In this document: positions 236-38,350 of the stretch, one piece after another
Layout: each line of letters starts with the position of its first letter
Numbering within the stretch: the first letter of the stretch is position 1
Origin: a virus
Length of the DNA stretch: 38,350 bases
UHGV virus genome: UHGV-0182861
Strand: one strand, 5' to 3'
Program-made: the position numbers and the translations under genes
Notes under the pieces: generated by a model
The model's database searches: none
Seen by the model: only the letters and a program-made list of their open reading frames with translations
What the model was told of the DNA's origin: nothing

Positions 236-237
236 AA
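191..237. repeat. att core direct repeat, copy 1 (ssrA 3' end; attL of prophage)
   Basis: 47-nt string atgtaggaatttcggacgcgggttcaactcccgccagctccaccaaa is repeated identically at 35222..35268. Confidence 0.85.
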
Positions 238-244
238 TAAATCA

Positions 245-278
245 AGGGGCTACGTGAAAGCGTAGCCCCTTTTTCTTT
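245..278 (+). terminator. Rho-independent terminator downstream of ssrA
   Basis: Hairpin aggggctacg / cgtagcccct with a 6-nt loop, followed by a ttttcttt run. Confidence 0.6.
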
Positions 279-281
279 GGT

Positions 282-343: not shown

Positions 344-1117
344 TTACAACTTAAAGAGTTTTGCTTGCCCTGGATTAACAGCTTCGACGTAGTTTTTGAC
401 CCCTATTCTGTGCGGCTCATAATTGCTTGAATAGAAATCAATCAGGAAGTCACTCATTTTCTGAGATGTGACTTTCATAACTCCCTTACTCAAAGTTAAA
501 TTAAACACGCTAATCTTTGACGATGGTGCCTGAGTTTTACTCATGTTGGCTTGATAACCAGATTTACGCATTGCCACTAGTGCTTCGTCGTAAGCCGCTT
601 GTAATTGGGCCAAATCGTTTGACGAGATGATCACATCATCCATAAACACACTTAGCTTGAGATCATGATGTTTGTTCAATCGGCGTAGTAAGCTACCAAA
701 ATAACTTTTATCTAAGCAGAGGGTTGCAAGTATTGGAGATTGAACAAAACCAAAAGGGAGGACATGCTTATGTGGACTATGGGACAAGTTTCTTACAGTT
801 GAAAATGTTGAGATTTCCCGCGCTTGAGAATAGGTGAAGTAGCTCTTTAGATCACGGGTGATACGACTACGGCTCGTTGACTGAAAAAATTGTTTAATAT
901 CAACAACGGCAAAAAAATCACTTTTTAAGTGTAATCTGGCAGCTTTAAGATGCCCACCAGTTCTTAGATGGTAAAAATAGAGTGGCGGAATCCACTTGTT
1001 TCTGACAGCCTGAAGTATCTTCCCTCCGACTTTACGTGCCTCAACGCTTGGGACATAAACCCAAACCCCGGGCTTAATCTCAAATTTATCTTCCCACCTT
1101 TGAACTTCTATTGTCAT
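344..1117 (-). CDS. Reverse transcriptase, compact retron-like (257 aa)
   Basis: Translation shows RT motifs: FFAVVDIKQFFQS (motif 1/2 with catalytic D), LPFGFVQSPILATLCL (motif B'), SVFMDDVII (Y/FxDD box) and G-Y-Q-A-N-M-S-K-T (motif D/E-like). About 40% GC versus about 53% for phage core. Poor SD; start overlaps upstream ORF by 32 nt. Confidence 0.75.
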   Translation of the reverse strand: MTIEVQRWEDKFEIKPGVWVYVPSVEARKVGGKILQAVRNKWIPPLYFYHLRTGGHLKAARLHLKSDFFAVVDIKQFFQSTSRSRITRDLKSYFTYSQAREISTFSTVRNLSHSPHKHVLPFGFVQSPILATLCLDKSYFGSLLRRLNKHHDLKLSVFMDDVIISSNDLAQLQAAYDEALVAMRKSGYQANMSKTQAPSSKISVFNLTLSKGVMKVTSQKMSDFLIDFYSSNYEPHRIGVKNYVEAVNPGQAKLFKL

Positions 1118-32542: not shown

Positions 32543-33556
32543 ATGACCATCAGAAAACAGCCGAACGGAAAGTGGTTATGTGAATGCTACCCAAACGGGC
32601 GAGATGGCAAACGCGTACGCAAACAATTTGCGACGAAAGGCGAAGCCATTGCGTTTGAGAATTTCACCATGGACGAGGTAAACAAGAAACCTTGGCTGGG
32701 AGAAAAGGAAGATCGGCGACACCTATCAGAATTAATTGAGCTGTGGTATTCCCTGTATGGTCAAACACTCGCAGACCCCAAGCGACTCATGGCGAAACTT
32801 GGAATTATCTGTAATGGTCTGGGCGATCCCATCGCTTCAGAGCTGACTGCCGGTGACTTTACGAAATACCGCGAAGCACGGCTAAAAGGTGAAGTGCGAA
32901 ATGAAGATGGCACGCTGATGTCGCCCGTTAAGCCCCGCACGGTAAACCTTGAACAGCGCAATCTATCATCTGTGTTCGGTACATTAAAAAAACTAGGACA
33001 CTGGTCAGCACCAAACCCGCTGGCAGGACTTCCGACCTTCAAAATTGCCGAAGGTGAGCTGGCTTTTCTTTCCACGGACGAAATCAAGCGCCTGTTGGCG
33101 GCATGTGCTGAATCTCAAAGCCCTAGCTTACTAATGATTGCAAAAATATGCCTGGCTACTGGCGCACGGTGGAGTGAAGCCGAAAATCTGCAGGGCCATC
33201 AAATATCGAAATACCGAATTACTTATACAAAAACAAAAGGCAAGAAAAACCGTACTGTGCCGATATCTCAGGATCTGTATGATGAACTCCCCAAAAACAG
33301 AGGAAAGTTATTCACGCCATGCAGAAAAGCCTTTGAGCGGGCAGTAAAGCGGGCCGGTATTGACCTACCGGAGGGCCAATGCACCCACGTGCTTCGCCAT
33401 ACATTCGCCAGTCACTTTATGATGAACGGCGGAAACATACTGGTACTGCGTGATATTTTGGGTCATGCCGATATAAAAATGACCATGATTTACGCCCACT
33501 TTTCGCCCGATCACCTTGAAGACGCGGTGACTAAAAATCCTCTTTATAATTTGTAG
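32543..33556 (+). CDS. int: Tyrosine integrase (P2/186 Int family)
   Basis: 337 aa with C-terminal catalytic motifs (R...HVLRHTFASHFMMNGG...LGHADIKMTMIYAHF) directly downstream of cI. Confidence 0.9.
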   Translation: MTIRKQPNGKWLCECYPNGRDGKRVRKQFATKGEAIAFENFTMDEVNKKPWLGEKEDRRHLSELIELWYSLYGQTLADPKRLMAKLGIICNGLGDPIASELTAGDFTKYREARLKGEVRNEDGTLMSPVKPRTVNLEQRNLSSVFGTLKKLGHWSAPNPLAGLPTFKIAEGELAFLSTDEIKRLLAACAESQSPSLLMIAKICLATGARWSEAENLQGHQISKYRITYTKTKGKKNRTVPISQDLYDELPKNRGKLFTPCRKAFERAVKRAGIDLPEGQCTHVLRHTFASHFMMNGGNILVLRDILGHADIKMTMIYAHFSPDHLEDAVTKNPLYNL

Positions 33557-33568
33557 TGGAGACCTATT

Positions 33569-35089
33569 GTGATTCAAAAATTAGATATTCAATCTGATGC
33601 GGTTGCAAAGTTAAGAATGGATGCTATTCGTTCAGAAATCCAAGGTTATTCCCCTGATTTATTTATCGAATTCTGTATGCAATATAACTTACAAAAATTT
33701 GAAGATAATATCCACATGTTACGACACATGCCTTGGATTGTTAATTTATGTCTAAAGTGGTCTGCGTCAGTAACTGGCAAGAATAAAAAATTCAAAATCC
33801 TCGATAAAAATCAAGCAATAAAACTCTTCCAAAAAACTTATGAAACCTTGAACATTATTCCTATCGGTCTTGAGAGGAAGAATGGCATGCATTTCTTCAT
33901 TAGAAATAATCTATACCAACAAGGAATCTACCAGAAAATTGACGCTCTAAACACAATTAGCAGACAAGTCTTTCTATTTTCAGAACTTGAAAAAAACCAT
34001 AAAATAAAGACAAGTTTTTTTACTATCACGAATGTATCTATCGAAGACTTTCTTAAGCTATCTTACATATTAATAACTCACATAACAGAAGAGCATCCCG
34101 TGAGAAAAATGAATGTAGATACATTTACTATATTATTTGACATCATTCCTAGAAATACCATTGAGAAATTTCTTGATGCAATATCAATAAATTACAATGA
34201 ACTATCTACATTTTGCAAATCAAAAACCTATGATAAACCTTTGCTTGAATACTACTCATCATCACCTTTTCTTGAAAAACCATTAATAAAAAAAGGTTCA
34301 GAGTATTTTCAGATACACACACAACTGACTTCAACAAGCATACAGACGTTCATATATGATCTTTTAAGAAGAACTGATGCCGAGAAGTTCATGGATAGCT
34401 TTGGAAATGTATTTGAAAATGCACTGGAATTAATACTAAAAGAAAGCGAAATTGATTTTCATAACGAAAAACACCTTAAAGAACGACTACCTAAAGATAA
34501 TAAAGTAGTTGATTATTTCATTCCACATACTGAGGCAAATATTTTCATTGATGCTAAAGGCGTTGAGATACACCAAAAAGGCATGGTAACATTACGCCCT
34601 GAGGATATTGCAGGAAAAATAAAGAAATCGGTATTAAAAGCAATCGAACAATCTCACGAAGTTAATCGAGAAATATACTCTAATGAGCGAATAATAGCTC
34701 CATTCAGGGCTAACTCATATATCATTTGCATTACATATAAAAACCTTTTCTTAGGCAATGGTAGTATCCTAGCTAATACTTATGCTAAAGATGAGATGAA
34801 TAAGATATATGACAAGTTTAAACATAACTATCATATCCCTACAGAGAATATTTTTTGTCTATCATTTGAAGAGTTTGAATATCTCATTGCATCATGCAAA
34901 AGGTTTAAAATTCCGCCTCATGAAGTCTTGCAATCTGCAGTTGAAAAGAACAAAAAACCATCAAGTGCTGCTTTCCTATTTTCCCACCATATAGAAGACT
35001 ATTTTGATAGAGTAGTCAATTCAGTCATAGTCAATGAGGCAGGCATTAAAATGGTAGATTCTATTATCAATAAATTAAAGCCTGAATAA
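33569..35089 (+). CDS. Orphan 506-aa protein, AT-rich; possible PD-(D/E)xK nuclease-like motif
   Basis: GTG start 12 nt after int stop with SD GGAG; about 30% GC; segment VVDYFIPHTEANIFIDAKGVE fits a D...(D/E)xK pattern by eye; no other recognised motif. Confidence 0.55.
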   Translation: MIQKLDIQSDAVAKLRMDAIRSEIQGYSPDLFIEFCMQYNLQKFEDNIHMLRHMPWIVNLCLKWSASVTGKNKKFKILDKNQAIKLFQKTYETLNIIPIGLERKNGMHFFIRNNLYQQGIYQKIDALNTISRQVFLFSELEKNHKIKTSFFTITNVSIEDFLKLSYILITHITEEHPVRKMNVDTFTILFDIIPRNTIEKFLDAISINYNELSTFCKSKTYDKPLLEYYSSSPFLEKPLIKKGSEYFQIHTQLTSTSIQTFIYDLLRRTDAEKFMDSFGNVFENALELILKESEIDFHNEKHLKERLPKDNKVVDYFIPHTEANIFIDAKGVEIHQKGMVTLRPEDIAGKIKKSVLKAIEQSHEVNREIYSNERIIAPFRANSYIICITYKNLFLGNGSILANTYAKDEMNKIYDKFKHNYHIPTENIFCLSFEEFEYLIASCKRFKIPPHEVLQSAVEKNKKPSSAAFLFSHHIEDYFDRVVNSVIVNEAGIKMVDSIINKLKPE

Positions 35090-35221: not shown

Positions 35222-35268
35222 ATGTAGGAATTTCGGACGCGGGTTCAACTCCCGCCAGCTCCACCAAA
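35222..35268. repeat. att core direct repeat, copy 2 (displaced ssrA 3' end; attR of prophage, junction with next island)
   Basis: Identical 47-nt copy of 191..237. Confidence 0.85.
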
Positions 35269-35300
35269 CATTGATGTACTGAAGTTCAGTGAAGTCTTCT

Positions 35301-35336
35301 AAGCCCGCATGGCACAAGCTATGCGGGCTTTTTTAC
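35301..35336 (+). terminator. Rho-independent terminator after the displaced ssrA 3' end
   Basis: agcccgcat / atgcgggct stem with 10-nt loop followed by tttttt. Confidence 0.6.
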
Positions 35337-35431: not shown

Positions 35432-36661
35432 ATGGCAAAGATCGCGAAGAAACTCACCGACACAGAAATCAAAAACACCAAGCCAGCAGACAAAGAAGTC
35501 AACTTGTTTGACGGGGATGGCTTGATTCTACGAATCTCTCCCCTCTCAACAGGTGGGAAAAAAAATTGGTATTTCAGGTATTCAGTGCCAGTGAGCAAGA
35601 AAAGAACCAAGATGAGCCTTGGGACCTACCCTCACCTTACCCTGGCAAGAGCAAGAGCCTTGCGTGATGAATACCTCTCCTTGCTTGCGAATGGCACGGA
35701 CCCTCAAGTCCATAACAACGATAAAGCTAATGCATTAAAGAATGCCACAGAACACATATTACAAGCCGTGGCGAGAAAATGGTTGGATGAGAAGGTAAAG
35801 ACCTCTGGCATCTCACAAGACCATGCAGAAGACATCTGGCGGAGCCTTGAACGAAATATTTTCCCCGGTCTGGGTAATGTGCCAATCAATGAGATCCGTC
35901 CCAAGCTCTTAAAGCAGCATCTTGATCCAATTGAACAACGAGGAGTACTGGAAACTTTGCGGCGGCTAATTTCCAGGTTGAATGAAATCTTCCGTTGGGC
36001 GGCTACAGAAGAGCTGATTGAATTTAACCCCGCAGATAATCTAGGCCAACGTTTCAGTAGGCCTAAAAAACAGAATATGCCTGCCTTACCCCCCTCTGAA
36101 CTCCCTCGTTTTCTGGCAGCACTGAACAATGCTTCTGTCCGTTTAGAAACAAGACTATTGATTGAATGGCAACTTCTCACATGGGTTCGCCCTGGTGAAG
36201 CAGTCCGCGCAAGATGGTCTGATATAGATATGGATAACAGCATGTGGAACATCCCGGCTGAATTTATGAAGATGAAAAAACCTCATAAGGTCCCATTAAG
36301 CAAAGAATCTCTTCGGATACTCAAGTCTATGGAATCAATCAGTGGGCACCGAGAGTGGGTATTTCCCAGCATAAAGGCTCCCTTAAATCATATGCATGAA
36401 CAAACAGCCAATGCAGCAATTATCCGTATGGGCTTTGGAGGTGAACTTGTTGCCCACGGAATGCGATCTATTGCAAGAACGGCAGCGGAAGAGTCAGGTA
36501 AGTTCAGGACAGATGCCCTTGAAGCGGCCCTTGCCCACTCAAAAAAAGACGAAATTATCGCTGCATATAATCGTGCGGAATATATTACCGAACGAGTAGC
36601 TCTCATGCAGTGGTGGGGAGATTATGTCCTGGCACAACAGCTTAAAATTTTTGCTGCTTAA
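35432..36661 (+). CDS. Tyrosine integrase, P4/CP4-57 IntA type
   Basis: Trimmed to MAKIAKKLTDTEIKNTKPADKEVNLFDGDGLILRI (typical P4-family N-terminus) with SD GAGGG; C-terminal catalytic region HGMRSIARTAA...LAHS...AYNRAEY. Confidence 0.85.
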   Translation: MAKIAKKLTDTEIKNTKPADKEVNLFDGDGLILRISPLSTGGKKNWYFRYSVPVSKKRTKMSLGTYPHLTLARARALRDEYLSLLANGTDPQVHNNDKANALKNATEHILQAVARKWLDEKVKTSGISQDHAEDIWRSLERNIFPGLGNVPINEIRPKLLKQHLDPIEQRGVLETLRRLISRLNEIFRWAATEELIEFNPADNLGQRFSRPKKQNMPALPPSELPRFLAALNNASVRLETRLLIEWQLLTWVRPGEAVRARWSDIDMDNSMWNIPAEFMKMKKPHKVPLSKESLRILKSMESISGHREWVFPSIKAPLNHMHEQTANAAIIRMGFGGELVAHGMRSIARTAAEESGKFRTDALEAALAHSKKDEIIAAYNRAEYITERVALMQWWGDYVLAQQLKIFAA

Positions 36662-36670
36662 ATGGACGAA

Positions 36671-36692
36671 AGGCTACTAATCAGTAGCCTTT
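36671..36692 (+). terminator. Hairpin after the integrase stop
   Basis: aggctact / agtagcct stem with aatc loop, followed by tt. Confidence 0.35.
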
Positions 36693-38023
36693 CCAGTATC
36701 CCCATACATGGGGCAAATAACAAACTGTACATAGTACAGGATACATATCAGCAAAAACACTTGATGACATACATTATTAATAAATCATTTTTAAATAATG
36801 TCAATATCTGTGATGTGATTTATTTCTAAAATTAATGTTAGATCTGGCAATGCCATTATACTTTTAAAAAAATAAAATCCATACCATTCCCCTCGTTACT
36901 TATAATCAAATGAAAATATAACTCATCGCAACCCTGTCAAATAAAATTAATTTTTCACTTACAAATAATCAGACTTTAAAAAATAACTAATACAAATTCA
37001 ATACGCGATAATAATTTCATACCTACATATTTACCACTCACTGTTATAGCCCATTATAATCTTGTGCTGAAGAAATGTATTACCAAGTTTCACTTGCACA
37101 ATCGAAGATGTATATTAGAAGCACTACCTGTCTGCAAGAGAAGCCTTTAAAATAAATACACGCGAAGCATTTAAACAGCCTTTTCATTTAGCTTCCTTTA
37201 AGCTACCGAAGCGATGAATTCGGAGCTTCTCATGAACTGCAAGAGAAGCTTTAAAATCAATGCAAGCGAAGCTATATATATTTATATAAGAATATCTGCT
37301 ACTACAGTTTTTTATTATTATAACTAAAGCAAGGGCTAACTCTGCGAAGCCGCTGCGCTTGCTTCTTCGAGTTCCCCTTGCTTTTCTTCCCTGCGGTTAG
37401 AAAAGAAAGAAAACCTCTGCCAACCTTGCATATCAATAATTATATTCAGGCAAATATCATATATACTTCTCTTAAGCATTTCTTCCAAAAATAAACCCCT
37501 CACTTTACAAACAACTTGACACATCATTTTAGCTTTACATCCTATTCGTTTAGAATATTAACACCCGATGAATTTTAATGACCAAGTAAAAATTTTCACC
37601 ATGACAAAAAATTTAATAACTAAACGTGATGTAAGTACATTAAGACAGTTTTTTGATTACAAAGTTTTGTATCTTTTGCTTTATCTTCCTGTAAATATGC
37701 AAGAAGAGGATAGAGTGAAGGGTACAGAAAATTCTCACAGTTATGTAGTATGGAACTCACTTGGTGTTAGTCCGAGTAGTAGAAATTCACCCAGACAAAC
37801 ATTAACAGCTATACAGCAATTATGCCTATGACCGTGACTCCATTGAGGGCCAACGACTGACATCAACAACCCTGTTACAAAGCACTTACCCCATGAGTCA
37901 TTGCACTTGCTGAGCCGAACGAAAACACTAAAATCAGATAATAATTAATCGCTGTATAAGCTCGTAACAAGCGGAACTTTAAGGCAAAATAGGGCTACCA
38001 TCCTAATTCACGAAGTTACGCAA

Positions 38024-38350
38024 ATGGCAAGAAAACCTAAAGAAATCAAAACAGATCCGTTAGAAGTCATCCTGTGGAAAGCGGCAGACAAGCTGCGTAA
38101 AAACATTGATGCAGCCGAGTACAAGCATGTCGTACTAGGCCTCATTTTCCTTAAGTACATTTCTGATTCTTTTGAATCTCATTATGAGTTGCTGAAAGCC
38201 GGTGAAGGCGAGTTCGCAGGTGCTGACCCGGAAGACAAAGACGAGTACACCGCTTACAACGTTTTCTTTGTCCCAGAGCTTGCACGTTGGAACTATCTGA
38301 TTTCTAAGGCCAAGCTACCCGAAATCGGTAAGCTGATCGATGATGCTATG
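38024..38350 (+). CDS. hsdM: Type I restriction-modification methyltransferase subunit HsdM, N-terminal fragment (continues past window end)
   Basis: Open frame to the window edge; ...LWKAADKLRKNIDAAEYKHVVLGLIFLKYISDSFE matches the conserved HsdM N-terminal motif. Confidence 0.7.
   Translation, partial: MARKPKEIKTDPLEVILWKAADKLRKNIDAAEYKHVVLGLIFLKYISDSFESHYELLKAGEGEFAGADPEDKDEYTAYNVFFVPELARWNYLISKAKLPEIGKLIDDAM

What the first reader, a model, noticed from the sequence alone, without database searches (positions are those of the whole stretch)
36662..38023. 1.3-kb AT-rich non-coding spacer with direct repeats and a long hairpin between intA-like gene and hsdM
The region has no convincing ORF, is about 28% GC, and contains a 36-bp direct repeat (ctgcaagagaagcctttaaaataaatacacgcgaagc near 37131 and ctgcaagagaagctttaaaatcaatgcaagcgaagc near 37238), recurring gcgaagc/gcttc motifs and a 13-bp-stem hairpin (gcaagggctaactc...gagttccccttgc). 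Possible roles are an H-NS-silenced regulatory region, a small RNA, or a decayed small mobile element.
Basis: seen in the sequence. Interest (0 to 1): 0.35.

Follow-up and report, generated by a model that had tools for sequence, protein, structure and literature searches.

The report
Transfer origin of a mobilizable island
The hairpin in this unannotated spacer is most likely the origin of transfer (oriT) of a mobilizable genomic island sitting at the E. coli tmRNA gene, that is, the DNA site where a relaxase nicks the island so that a helper plasmid can carry it, with its restriction and defence genes, into another cell.

Summary
Window 36662-38023 is a 1.36-kb spacer with no supported gene, between a P4-type integrase and hsdM. 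It contains the 36/37-nt direct repeat, a 13-fold excess of GAAGC/GCTTC, and the long imperfect hairpin. GC is 34%, not 28%.

The spacer is a mosaic. Its core is a 79-bp two-hairpin unit (37327-37405). This unit occurs in 618 of 5426 complete E. coli genomes, once or twice each, and in 59 loci across Enterobacterales. Wherever enough sequence is available, a MobC-like accessory gene and a MobA/VirD2 relaxase follow it on the same strand, either about 180 nt away or after inserted defence cargo. They are never found upstream or inverted.

Both hairpins covary. The invariant 5' arm reads TTAGCCCTTGCT on the minus strand, matching 10 of 12 bases of the published putative oriT core of IncQ-3 plasmids (TTACACCTTGCT). 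The MobA and MobC of those plasmids are the closest plasmid homologues.

Best reading: the oriT of an IncQ-3-like MOB module on an integrative mobilizable element, with defence cargo lodged between oriT and the mob promoter. The sRNA, terminator and decayed-transposon readings are weaker. It is a new member of a known kind, of moderate interest.

The parts
35222..35267 (+). Second copy of the ssrA 3' end, an attachment-site repeat. It marks the junction between a P2-like prophage on the left and the integrase/hsd island on the right.
   Evidence: Identical 46-nt string at 190-235 and 35222-35267. tmRNA found by Rfam at 1-235.
35432..36661 (+). P4-type tyrosine integrase of the island.
   Evidence: Pfam Arm-DNA-bind_3, Phage_int_M and Phage_integrase. 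Annotated as an integrase in ET915 and 873.10.
36664..36806 (.). 'Segment A': a conserved cluster of short hairpins (36669-36692, 36700-36713, 36725-36739) ending in TGTCAAT. Role unknown. It may be a terminator of the upstream gene and/or a single-strand feature of the region next to oriT.
   Evidence: 74-79% identical to DNA at -267..-112 from the unit in islands where the upstream gene is parB rather than int. Alignment A2 shows the compensatory change CTGTAC/GTACAG to CTGCAC/GTGCAG.
37132..37168 (+). Direct repeat, copy 1 (GAGAAGC ... GCGAAGC).
37237..37272 (+). Direct repeat, copy 2.
   Evidence: A locus from Superficieibacter electus (L053) appears to carry one extra 105-bp period.
37327..37405 (.). 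oriT-like unit: hairpin 1 plus hairpin 2. This is the conserved core of the spacer.
   Evidence: 618 of 5426 E. coli genomes. 59 loci in other Enterobacterales. Followed by mobC-like and relaxase genes on the same strand. Covariation. Covariance model score of 97 bits, expected because the window row is in the model.
37328..37339 (-). Putative nick-region core: TTAGCCCTTGCT on the minus strand. It forms the invariant 5' arm of hairpin 1.
   Evidence: 10 of 12 identical to the IncQ-3 putative oriT core TTACACCTTGCT (PMC7557826). The same motif is present in pGNB2 and pWES-1 about 125 nt upstream of mobC.
37329..37381 (.). Hairpin 1: outer stem GCAAGGG/CCCTTGC, middle stem AACTC/GAGTT, inner stem GAAGC/GCTTC.
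37381..37405 (.). Hairpin 2: CTTTTCT / loop TCCCTGCGGTT / AGAAAAG, with a 2-bp inner stem (CC/GG).
   Evidence: 6 of its 10 pairs show changes on both sides. The loop consensus CCCTTCGGT is also present in a GC-rich hairpin at the equivalent distance in pGNB2.
37414..38023 (+). hsdM-linked upstream region, presumed to hold the hsdM promoter and leader. No gene or domain detected.
   Evidence: Travels with hsdM at 96-99% identity into other contexts (L002-L004, L060). In about 280 other E. coli genomes an rve pseudogene occupies the equivalent place. No Pfam hit here.
38024..38350 (+). 5' part of hsdM (type I restriction-modification, M subunit). First cargo gene; it runs off the window.
   Evidence: Annotation of the homologous genes.

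Best explanation
The window holds two elements inserted in tandem at the tmRNA gene: a P2-like prophage, then an integrative mobilizable element that begins with the integrase at 35432. The 79-bp two-hairpin unit at 37327-37405 is that element's origin of transfer.

The inferred mechanism is as follows. After excision, a MobC-like accessory protein and a MobA/VirD2-type relaxase assemble on the unit. Both are encoded further along the island in relatives. The relaxase nicks one strand in or next to the invariant core. The nicked strand is probably the minus strand, where the core reads TTAGCCCTTGCT and lies immediately 3' of the inverted repeat. The relaxase then pilots that strand through the mating channel of a co-resident conjugative element.

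The hairpins give the relaxase its recognition structure on single-stranded DNA for initiation and termination. Defence cargo, here hsdMSR, sits in a variable slot between the unit and the mob promoter. The flanking direct repeats and GAAGC motifs are lineage-specific additions, possibly extra relaxosome binding sites.

Shown: the conservation, the covariation, the linkage to mob genes, and the homology to the IncQ-3 MOB module. Inferred: nicking, the strand nicked, and the function of the repeats.
For: 1. Linkage. In 8 diverged or complete E. coli islands the unit is followed on the same strand by a 121-145-aa accessory gene and a relaxase. The two genes sit at about +180/+590 nt, or after 2-11 kb of cargo. 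In 59 loci from other species, 30 show the relaxase downstream on the same strand (23 directly, 7 after cargo) and none show it upstream or inverted. About 0.5 chance matches to the search pattern are expected (my calculation).

2. Protein identity. The relaxase hits Pfam PF03432 at E = 1e-22 to 1e-25. Among complete plasmids with typed MOB modules, its best-characterised relatives are IncQ-3-type plasmids such as pGNB2 (41% identity over 250 aa). The accessory protein is 43% identical to pGNB2 MobC (E = 4e-22).

3. Sequence core. The core matches 10 of 12 bases of the IncQ-3 putative oriT core (PMC7557826), with the same orientation and a similar distance to mobC. The 9-mer CCCTTCGGT sits in a hairpin loop 61-63 nt downstream of the core in both this family and pGNB2, except that this window reads CCCTGCGGT, 1 mismatch. 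A Pseudomonas plasmid whose relaxase is 49% identical keeps the architecture with compensated stems: GCCAGG/CCTGGC and TCGGC/GCCGA.

4. Structure. 93% of cells are paired, against 37-66% when partners are slid. Nine pairs change on both sides, reached by 0 of 500 shuffles.

5. Independence from the mob promoter. Cargo separates the unit from the retained mob promoter by up to 11 kb. This suits a cis DNA site whose proteins act in trans.

6. Context. Mobilizable elements carrying defence genes are known at the tmRNA hotspot (PMC10121019). Chromosomal oriT families upstream of relaxases, with defence genes nearby, were recently predicted (bioRxiv 10.64898/2026.01.13.699239).
Against: No experiment shows nicking or transfer. 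The IncQ-3 core is itself only a putative, homology-based assignment.

The window ends inside hsdM, so it cannot be seen whether this island still has mob genes. The closest relative, ET915, has them 11 kb downstream, but many E. coli lineages have lost them.

The covariance model built on the unit finds the pGNB2, pWES-1 and Pseudomonas plasmid sites only at 10-11 bits, E about 2. blastn of the unit finds nothing in plasmids.

The match to the classical MOBQ nick consensus is not significant for the window copy: 9 of 13, reached by 431 of 2000 shuffles.

The folding strand is unresolved. The minus strand is only slightly more stable, and G-T versus A-C counts are balanced.

The cross-species sample was drawn with a pattern that fixes 23 bases, so the invariance of those bases in that sample is by design.
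Confidence: 0.78

Rival explanations
1. The unit is mainly a transcription terminator or insulator. Hairpin 1 followed by the T-run (TTTTCTT) would stop plus-strand transcription from the integrase side before the cargo and mob genes. Its sequence conservation would then be incidental.
For: A stable hairpin is followed directly by a conserved T-run in all variants. A-rich and T-rich flanks would allow bidirectional termination.
Against: Upstream genes are on either strand in different loci (for example L009, L011, L013 and L017 have minus-strand neighbours), so a plus-strand terminator is often not needed there. Terminators do not normally keep a 12-nt invariant arm across genera while flanks are unrelated. 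Hairpin 2 pairs the T-run with a downstream A-run and covaries, which a simple terminator does not require. The consensus scan did not call it a terminator. A terminator also does not explain the fixed orientation towards the mob genes or the match to the IncQ-3 core. The two roles are not mutually exclusive.
Confidence: 0.1
2. The region encodes a small RNA. For example, one could start at the promoter-like site at 37031-37060, run through the direct repeats, and end at hairpin 1. Another could be a minus-strand RNA ending at the 36739-36725 hairpin.
For: Promoter-like hexamers score 10 of 12 at 37031-37060 (+) and 36940-36913 (-), and there is a terminator-like site on the minus strand at 36739-36725. 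The structure covaries. There is a weak MicA-like hit at 36668-36737 on the minus strand (22 bits).
Against: Promoter-like sites are no more frequent than in shuffles (7 against 5.7). No Rfam family reaches its threshold. Sequence upstream of the unit is unrelated in most families, so no promoter is conserved with it. The MicA-like hit is far below its gathering score of 41.
Confidence: 0.06
3. The unit is a recombination or docking site used to capture and exchange cargo cassettes. It could be used by the serine recombinase found with ParB genes in sister islands, or by the integrase, rather than being a transfer origin.
For: Homology between islands breaks sharply on both sides of the unit, and different defence genes follow it. 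Sister islands carry a large recombinase gene upstream.
Against: Most loci with the unit have no such recombinase within reach, and the window has none. The unit bears no resemblance to the ssrA attachment repeat. I compared it by eye, from memory, with the integron attC R''/R' consensus and it does not fit. Linkage is to the relaxase genes, not to a recombinase.
Confidence: 0.05
4. The spacer is decayed junk: remnants of insertion sequences and pseudogenes, silenced by H-NS, with no sequence-specific function.
For: Low GC (30-39%). In about 280 E. coli genomes an rve pseudogene lies between the unit and hsdM. IS1 has inserted into the spacer in ET745.
Against: The window copy has no detectable transposase remnant. 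The unit and segment A are conserved across genera with compensatory changes. This reading may still hold for 36807-37130 and for parts of 37414-37807.
Confidence: 0.04

Closest known systems
Putative oriT and MOB module (mobC-mobA/repB) of IncQ-3 plasmids such as pGNB2, pWES-1 and pBRST7.6 (PMC7557826; Loftie-Eaton & Rawlings 2012, as cited there)
   Same: Gene order is core, then hairpin, then mobC-like gene, then relaxase, all in one orientation. The core matches 10 of 12 bases on the strand complementary to the mob genes. A hairpin with a CCCTTCGGT loop lies about 62 nt from the core (this window copy reads CCCTGCGGT). MobC is 43% and MobA 41% identical.
   Different: The element is a chromosomal, integrase-borne island rather than a plasmid. 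The relaxase is about 410 aa with no fused primase. The core is embedded as the 5' arm of a long three-tier hairpin that pGNB2 lacks. Stems are AT-rich rather than GC-rich. Cargo can separate the site from the mob genes by kilobases. Overall DNA similarity is too low for blastn or a significant covariance-model score.
RSF1010/R1162 (MOBQ1) oriT: inverted repeat with a GAA loop, then the nick region TAAGTGCGCCCT
   Same: An inverted repeat lies immediately 5' of a conserved ...GCCCT(T/Y) motif on one strand. The short forms of the unit have a GAA triloop (GCGAAGC). Some variants match the consensus core at 11 of 13.
   Different: The window copy matches only 9 of 13, which is not significant. 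The accessory gene is co-directional with the relaxase, not divergent. The RSF1010 details come from memory and from the consensus quoted in PMC3832669.
Computationally predicted chromosomal oriT families and relaxase-less 'iOriT' islands (Ares-Arroyo et al., bioRxiv 10.64898/2026.01.13.699239)
   Same: The site lies in the first intergenic region upstream of a chromosomal relaxase operon in E. coli and Salmonella. Defence genes cluster next to it. Many islands retain the site after losing the mob genes.
   Different: I could not check whether this unit is one of their 52 families, because no supplement is held. That work defines regions, not the two-hairpin anatomy, the core or the cargo slot.
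Defence-carrying mobilizable elements at the E. coli tmRNA hotspot (#9 of Hochhauser et al. 2023, PMC10121019)
   Same: Same integration site, and the same kind of cargo (restriction-modification and other defence genes).
   Different: That study catalogues the islands and does not describe any cis-acting transfer site.

Membership tests
oriT of an IncQ-3-like (pGNB2-type) MobC/MobA MOB module | The site lies upstream of, and in fixed orientation to, the cognate accessory and relaxase genes. | tested here: met
   8 E. coli islands and 30 of 59 cross-species loci have both genes downstream on the same strand, with none inverted or upstream. In the window itself the genes would lie beyond the end. 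The ET915 island has a spacer 96% identical to the window's and carries them 11 kb downstream.
oriT of an IncQ-3-like (pGNB2-type) MobC/MobA MOB module | Conserved 12-bp core TTACACCTTGCT. | tested here: met
   TTAGCCCTTGCT on the minus strand at 37328-37339, 10 of 12 identical. It is invariant in all unit variants seen, including E. coli copies found by blastn without a pattern (PMC7557826).
oriT of an IncQ-3-like (pGNB2-type) MobC/MobA MOB module | Relaxase and accessory protein homologous to IncQ-3 MobA and MobC. | tested here: met
   41% identity over 250 aa by tblastn. 43% over 91 aa, E = 4e-22. Pfam PF03432.
oriT of an IncQ-3-like (pGNB2-type) MobC/MobA MOB module | Overall DNA homology of the oriT region. 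| tested here: inconclusive
   The covariance model places its top hit at the right spot in pGNB2, pWES-1 and pHNGDW697-2, but at 10-11 bits, E about 2. blastn finds nothing.
oriT (any family) | Inverted repeat next to the nick region, kept by selection. | tested here: met
   93% of cells paired, 9 pairs with changes on both sides, 0 of 500 shuffles.
oriT (any family) | Strand-specific nicking by the relaxase, and cis-requirement for transfer. | not testable with these tools
   Needs nick mapping and mobilization assays.
Classical MOBQ1 (RSF1010-type) nick region | Consensus NWACCNNTAAGTGCGCCCTYNN. | tested here: inconclusive
   The best match is always on the minus strand at the same place, 8-11 of 13 core positions. 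The window has 9 of 13 (431 of 2000 shuffles as good); L013-type variants have 11 of 13 (5 of 2000).
Rfam RNA families (sRNA or cis-regulatory) | Score at or above the family's gathering threshold. | tested here: not met
   Only tmRNA is found in the window. In the spacer nothing exceeds 22 bits, against thresholds of 38-106.
Intrinsic terminator | GC-rich hairpin followed by a T-run, placed at the end of a transcription unit. | tested here: inconclusive
   The hairpin and T-run are present. The scan did not call it. Upstream gene orientation varies between loci.
Dispersed repeat, MITE or IS remnant | Many copies per genome, terminal inverted repeats with target duplication, or transposase remnants. 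| tested here: not met
   1-2 copies per genome. No Pfam hit in any spacer ORF. The rve pseudogene seen in other strains is absent here.

The most novel reading that the evidence does not exclude
The unit may be more than a transfer origin. It could be the fixed left anchor of a cargo-exchange slot.

Homology between islands breaks exactly at the outer edge of the nick core on one side, and right after hairpin 2 on the other. This pattern would fit relaxase-mediated oriT-oriT recombination, or transfer initiation and termination at the nick, reshuffling whole island arms. Recombination between the unit and the conserved mob promoter would then swap defence cassettes.

Orphan copies in lineages that lost the mob genes would keep tmRNA-site defence islands mobilizable in trans.
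Probability: 0.15. Interest if true: 0.65.

Novelty: new member of a known kind. Interest (0 to 1): 0.38.

Why it matters
It gives a concrete, testable cis site for how a common defence island at the E. coli tmRNA hotspot moves between cells. The unit is present in about 11% of complete E. coli genomes and in many other Enterobacterales.

It also explains an unannotated conserved gap, and it shows that restriction and other defence genes sit in a slot between the transfer origin and the mob genes. Islands that have lost their relaxase but kept the site may still be mobilizable in trans. That bears on how defence repertoires spread.

Tried and rejected
1. IS3-type transposase C-terminus on the minus strand at 37741-37869. 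I guessed this from the peptide '...GLTPSEFH'. There is no Pfam hit, and the rve pseudogene of other strains aligns only at its edge. Rejected.

2. Coding potential of the 87-aa ORF 37568-37831 and the 55-aa ORF 36662-36829. Neither has a Pfam hit. The ATG of the 55-aa ORF is absent in relatives. Rejected.

3. tRNA or tmRNA in the spacer. None found.

4. Tandem repeats. None found.

5. Unit present on plasmids by blastn. No match.

6. 37414-37810 on plasmids. No match.

7. Solved structures for the relaxase by sequence. Nothing found.

8. NCBIfam for the accessory protein. Nothing found.

9. Integron attC-like R''/R' sites, checked by eye from memory. They do not fit.

10. EARL/ROD21 islands. 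Their relaxase family is different (MobA/MobL plus TraD; PMC6035254). Not the same element.

11. Deciding which strand folds, from energies and wobble counts. Inconclusive.

12. Literature search for the unit's sequence. No relevant paper.

13. The original pGNB2 paper (PMC1563527). Not held.

Full report
**Context.** The window begins inside the tmRNA gene: Rfam finds tmRNA at 1-235. The last 46 nt of ssrA recur at 35222-35267. Between the two copies lies a P2-like prophage. It encodes a tape measure protein, large terminase, portal, a gpA-like origin-nicking protein, a repressor and an integrase. Right of the second copy a different element starts with a P4-type integrase at 35432-36661. This is followed by the 1362-bp gap under study and then hsdM from 38024. 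So this is a tandem array at the tmRNA integration hotspot. That site is known to host prophages, satellites and integrative mobilizable elements carrying defence genes (PMC10121019, read).

**Observation.**
- No ORF in the gap has a domain hit.
- NCBI's PGAP pipeline annotates nothing in the homologous gap of E. coli ET915 (96% identical) or 873.10 (93%).
- The direct repeat is 37132-37168 versus 37237-37272.
- GAAGC/GCTTC is 13-fold enriched in 37100-37420.
- The hairpin folds better than 199 of 200 shuffles.
- GC is 33.9%, not 28%.

**The spacer is a mosaic.** megablast against 5426 complete E. coli genomes finds parts of it in 381, but only 4 cover at least 80%. A recurrent breakpoint lies at 37317-37327.
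- The right part (37414-38021) travels with hsdM into other contexts at 96-99% identity.
- The first 145 bp ('segment A', 36664-36806) recurs at 74-79% identity about 110-270 bp upstream of the hairpin, in islands where the upstream gene is parB rather than int.
- The roughly 90-bp piece that contains the hairpin occurs on its own in 618 genomes, at 1-2 copies each and always chromosomal. It sits at junctions in front of quite different genes: type I and type ISP restriction systems, DEAD-box helicases, DUF4209, ABC-three-component systems and IS elements.

**What the unit is linked to.** In every diverged E. coli copy with enough downstream sequence, the unit is followed on the same strand by a 121-145-aa gene and a relaxase gene of about 410 aa. 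These lie either directly (about +180 and +590 nt) or after cargo. In ET915, whose spacer is 96% identical to the window's, the order is ssrA, int, spacer, hsdMSR, IS1, ankyrin genes, small gene, relaxase. The pair lies 11 kb downstream of the unit.

A pattern scan of one genome per species returned 59 loci. They come from Salmonella, Citrobacter, Enterobacter, Klebsiella, Pantoea, Erwinia, Pectobacterium, Brenneria, Serratia, Yersinia, Rahnella, Photorhabdus, Xenorhabdus and others. About 0.5 chance matches are expected, by my calculation for 23 fixed bases, 31 gap lengths and 596 Gb. Thirty of the loci show the relaxase downstream on the same strand: 23 directly and 7 after cargo. None show it upstream or inverted. 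Most of the others have too little downstream sequence or hold cargo.

In cargo-free loci a good promoter lies between the unit and the small gene (TTGACAT, 17 nt, TATAAAT, followed by a small hairpin and a ribosome-binding site). In cargo-containing loci that promoter stays with the mob genes, and the cargo sits between hairpin 2 and the promoter. The unit is therefore neither a leader nor an operator of the mob operon. It tolerates kilobases of separation, as expected for a cis site whose proteins act in trans.

**Anatomy and covariation.** The unit has two hairpins.
- Hairpin 1 (37329-37381) has three tiers: GCAAGGG/CCCTTGC, AACTC/GAGTT and GAAGC/GCTTC.
- Its apex is dispensable. Short forms reduce it to AACTCAGC-GAA-GCTGAGTT, whose tip GCGAAGC is the known extra-stable DNA mini-hairpin sequence (PMC13037366, listed).
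- Hairpin 2 (37381-37405) is CTTTTCT / TCCCTGCGGTT / AGAAAAG, with a 2-bp inner stem.

On a MAFFT alignment of 47 distinct variants, 93.2% of cells form standard pairs, against 37-66% when partners are slid. Nine pairs change on both sides, and 0 of 500 shuffles reach this. Examples are AACTC/GAGTT, AACCC/GGGTT and AACTTA/TAAGTT; CTTTTCT/AGAAAAG and TTTTTTC/GAAAAAA; and inner CC/GG, CT/AG, TC/GA and CA/TG.

There is a caveat. The cross-species set was drawn with a pattern that fixes 23 bases. The covarying positions lie outside those bases.

**Link to a known transfer system.**
- The relaxase carries the MobA/VirD2 nuclease domain (PF03432, E = 1e-22 to 1e-25).
- Among complete plasmids with typed MOB modules, its best-characterised relatives are IncQ-3-type plasmids such as pGNB2 and pWES-1 (41% identity over 250 aa). 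A Pseudomonas plasmid is closer, at 49%.
- The small protein is 43% identical to pGNB2 MobC (E = 4e-22).
- A comparative study of 29 IncQ-3 plasmids reports a conserved putative 12-bp oriT region, TTACACCTTGCT (PMC7557826). In pGNB2 this lies about 125 nt upstream of mobC, on the complementary strand.
- The invariant 5' arm of hairpin 1 reads TTAGCCCTTGCT on the minus strand. That is 10 of 12 identical, with the same orientation and a similar distance to the accessory gene.
- About 62 nt further on, pGNB2 has a GC-rich hairpin whose loop contains CCCTTCGGT. This is the consensus loop of hairpin 2 in this family; the window copy reads CCCTGCGGT, 1 mismatch.
- The Pseudomonas plasmid keeps GCCAGGGCTAAC, TCGGC-TCC-GCCGA, GTT ... 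CCTGGC. Both stems are compensated relative to the enterobacterial form.

A covariance model of the unit places its best hit at exactly these places in the three plasmids, but only at 10-11 bits (E about 2). The DNA homology therefore rests on the shared motifs, their spacing and the protein homology, not on a significant whole-unit score.

The classical MOBQ consensus (quoted in PMC3832669) also matches best on the minus strand at the same position. It is significant only for some variants, and the window copy matches 9 of 13.

**Mechanism (inferred).** The unit is the oriT of an IncQ-3-like MOB module carried by an integrative mobilizable element. By analogy with MobA/VirD2-type relaxases, the relaxase binds the inverted repeat and the adjacent single-stranded core, and nicks there. 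On the minus strand the inverted repeat lies immediately 5' of the core. That is the usual order for such relaxases, and it would make the mob genes and the cargo enter the recipient last. The spacer's left part, and then int, would enter first. I give this strand assignment about 55%. Fold energies and wobble counts do not settle it.

The upstream direct repeats and GCGAAG words occur only in the int/ParB-linked sub-family. They share words with hairpin 1 and may be extra relaxosome sites, or they may just be duplications. Segment A may be a terminator of the upstream gene or a single-strand feature of the region next to oriT. This is unresolved.

**Rivals.**
- A pure terminator is unlikely. 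Upstream gene orientation varies, hairpin 2 covaries, and one arm is invariant in sequence. A secondary insulating role is still possible.
- An sRNA is unsupported by Rfam and by the lack of a conserved promoter.
- A dispersed repeat or IS remnant is excluded for the unit.
- A cargo-capture recombination site lacks a linked recombinase.

**Novelty.** The kind of element is known. Integrative mobilizable elements with defence cargo at the tmRNA site are catalogued (PMC10121019). A 2026 preprint predicts dozens of chromosomal oriT families upstream of relaxases, with defence genes nearby and many relaxase-less islands (10.64898/2026.01.13.699239). I could not check whether this unit is among them.

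What is added here is the precise site in this window, its two-hairpin anatomy with covariation, its homology to the IncQ-3 core, and the cargo slot between the unit and the mob promoter. It is a new member of a known kind, of moderate interest.

Noticed in passing
window 236-35221 (attachment repeats 190-235 and 35222-35267): A complete-looking P2-like prophage lies between two copies of the ssrA 3' end. It encodes a tape measure protein, large terminase, portal, a gpA-like nickase, a repressor and an integrase at 32543-33556. It stands in tandem with the integrase/hsd island.
   Followed up: partly
window 33569-35089 (+): AT-rich (about 32% GC) 506-aa ORF between the phage integrase and the right attachment repeat. 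It matches only phrog_14259, of unknown function. The position is that of a P2 accessory or defence cargo slot.
   Followed up: no
window 344-1117 (-): 257-aa ORF just inside the left attachment repeat, with a weak 'polymerase' PHROG hit (phrog_2825, E = 1e-20). It may be another prophage-end cargo gene.
   Followed up: no
window 236-280 and 35300-35335: Each copy of the ssrA 3' end is followed by its own terminator-like hairpin with a T-run (ggggctacg...cgtagcccc ttttt, and gcccgcat...atgcgggc tttttt). The inserted prophage seems to supply a replacement terminator for ssrA, while another sits after the second copy.
   Followed up: no
window 36664-36806; L003/L010/L022 at -267..-112 from the unit: 'Segment A', a run of three or four short hairpins ending in TGTCAAT, directly follows the stop codon of whichever gene is upstream (int here, parB elsewhere). 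It shows at least one compensatory change. Several mismatches are A-C on the plus strand, which would be G-T on the minus strand.
   Followed up: partly
L003, L010, L022 and similar loci, about -60..-40 from the unit: Sister islands have a perfect 20-bp palindrome, CTTCGCTTGT|ACAAGCGAAG, where the window has its second direct repeat. It contains the same GCGAAG word.
   Followed up: no
L053 (Superficieibacter electus), -305..-10 from the unit: The blastn coordinates indicate that the 105-bp period carrying the direct repeat is present three times instead of twice, so the repeat number varies between species.
   Followed up: partly
L006/L015 (E. coli WCHEC020032) and about 280 other E. coli genomes: These islands have int, a large recombinase and two ParB genes upstream of the unit, an rve pseudogene between the unit and hsdM, and no mob genes left (IS-mediated loss). 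The unit there is an orphan.
   Followed up: partly
L080 (Pseudomonas juntendi plasmid pHNGDW697-2), 1024-1090: A plasmid typed 'non-mobilizable' by MOB-suite carries a relaxase 49% identical to the island's. Upstream of it lies a unit-like site with compensated stems (GCCAGG/CCTGGC, TCGGC/GCCGA). It is probably mobilizable after all.
   Followed up: partly
L004 and L066, about -930..-740 from the unit: A fragment similar to the MobC-like accessory gene lies upstream of the unit; it is annotated as a frameshifted pseudogene in L004. This hints at past rearrangement or tandem MOB modules.
   Followed up: no
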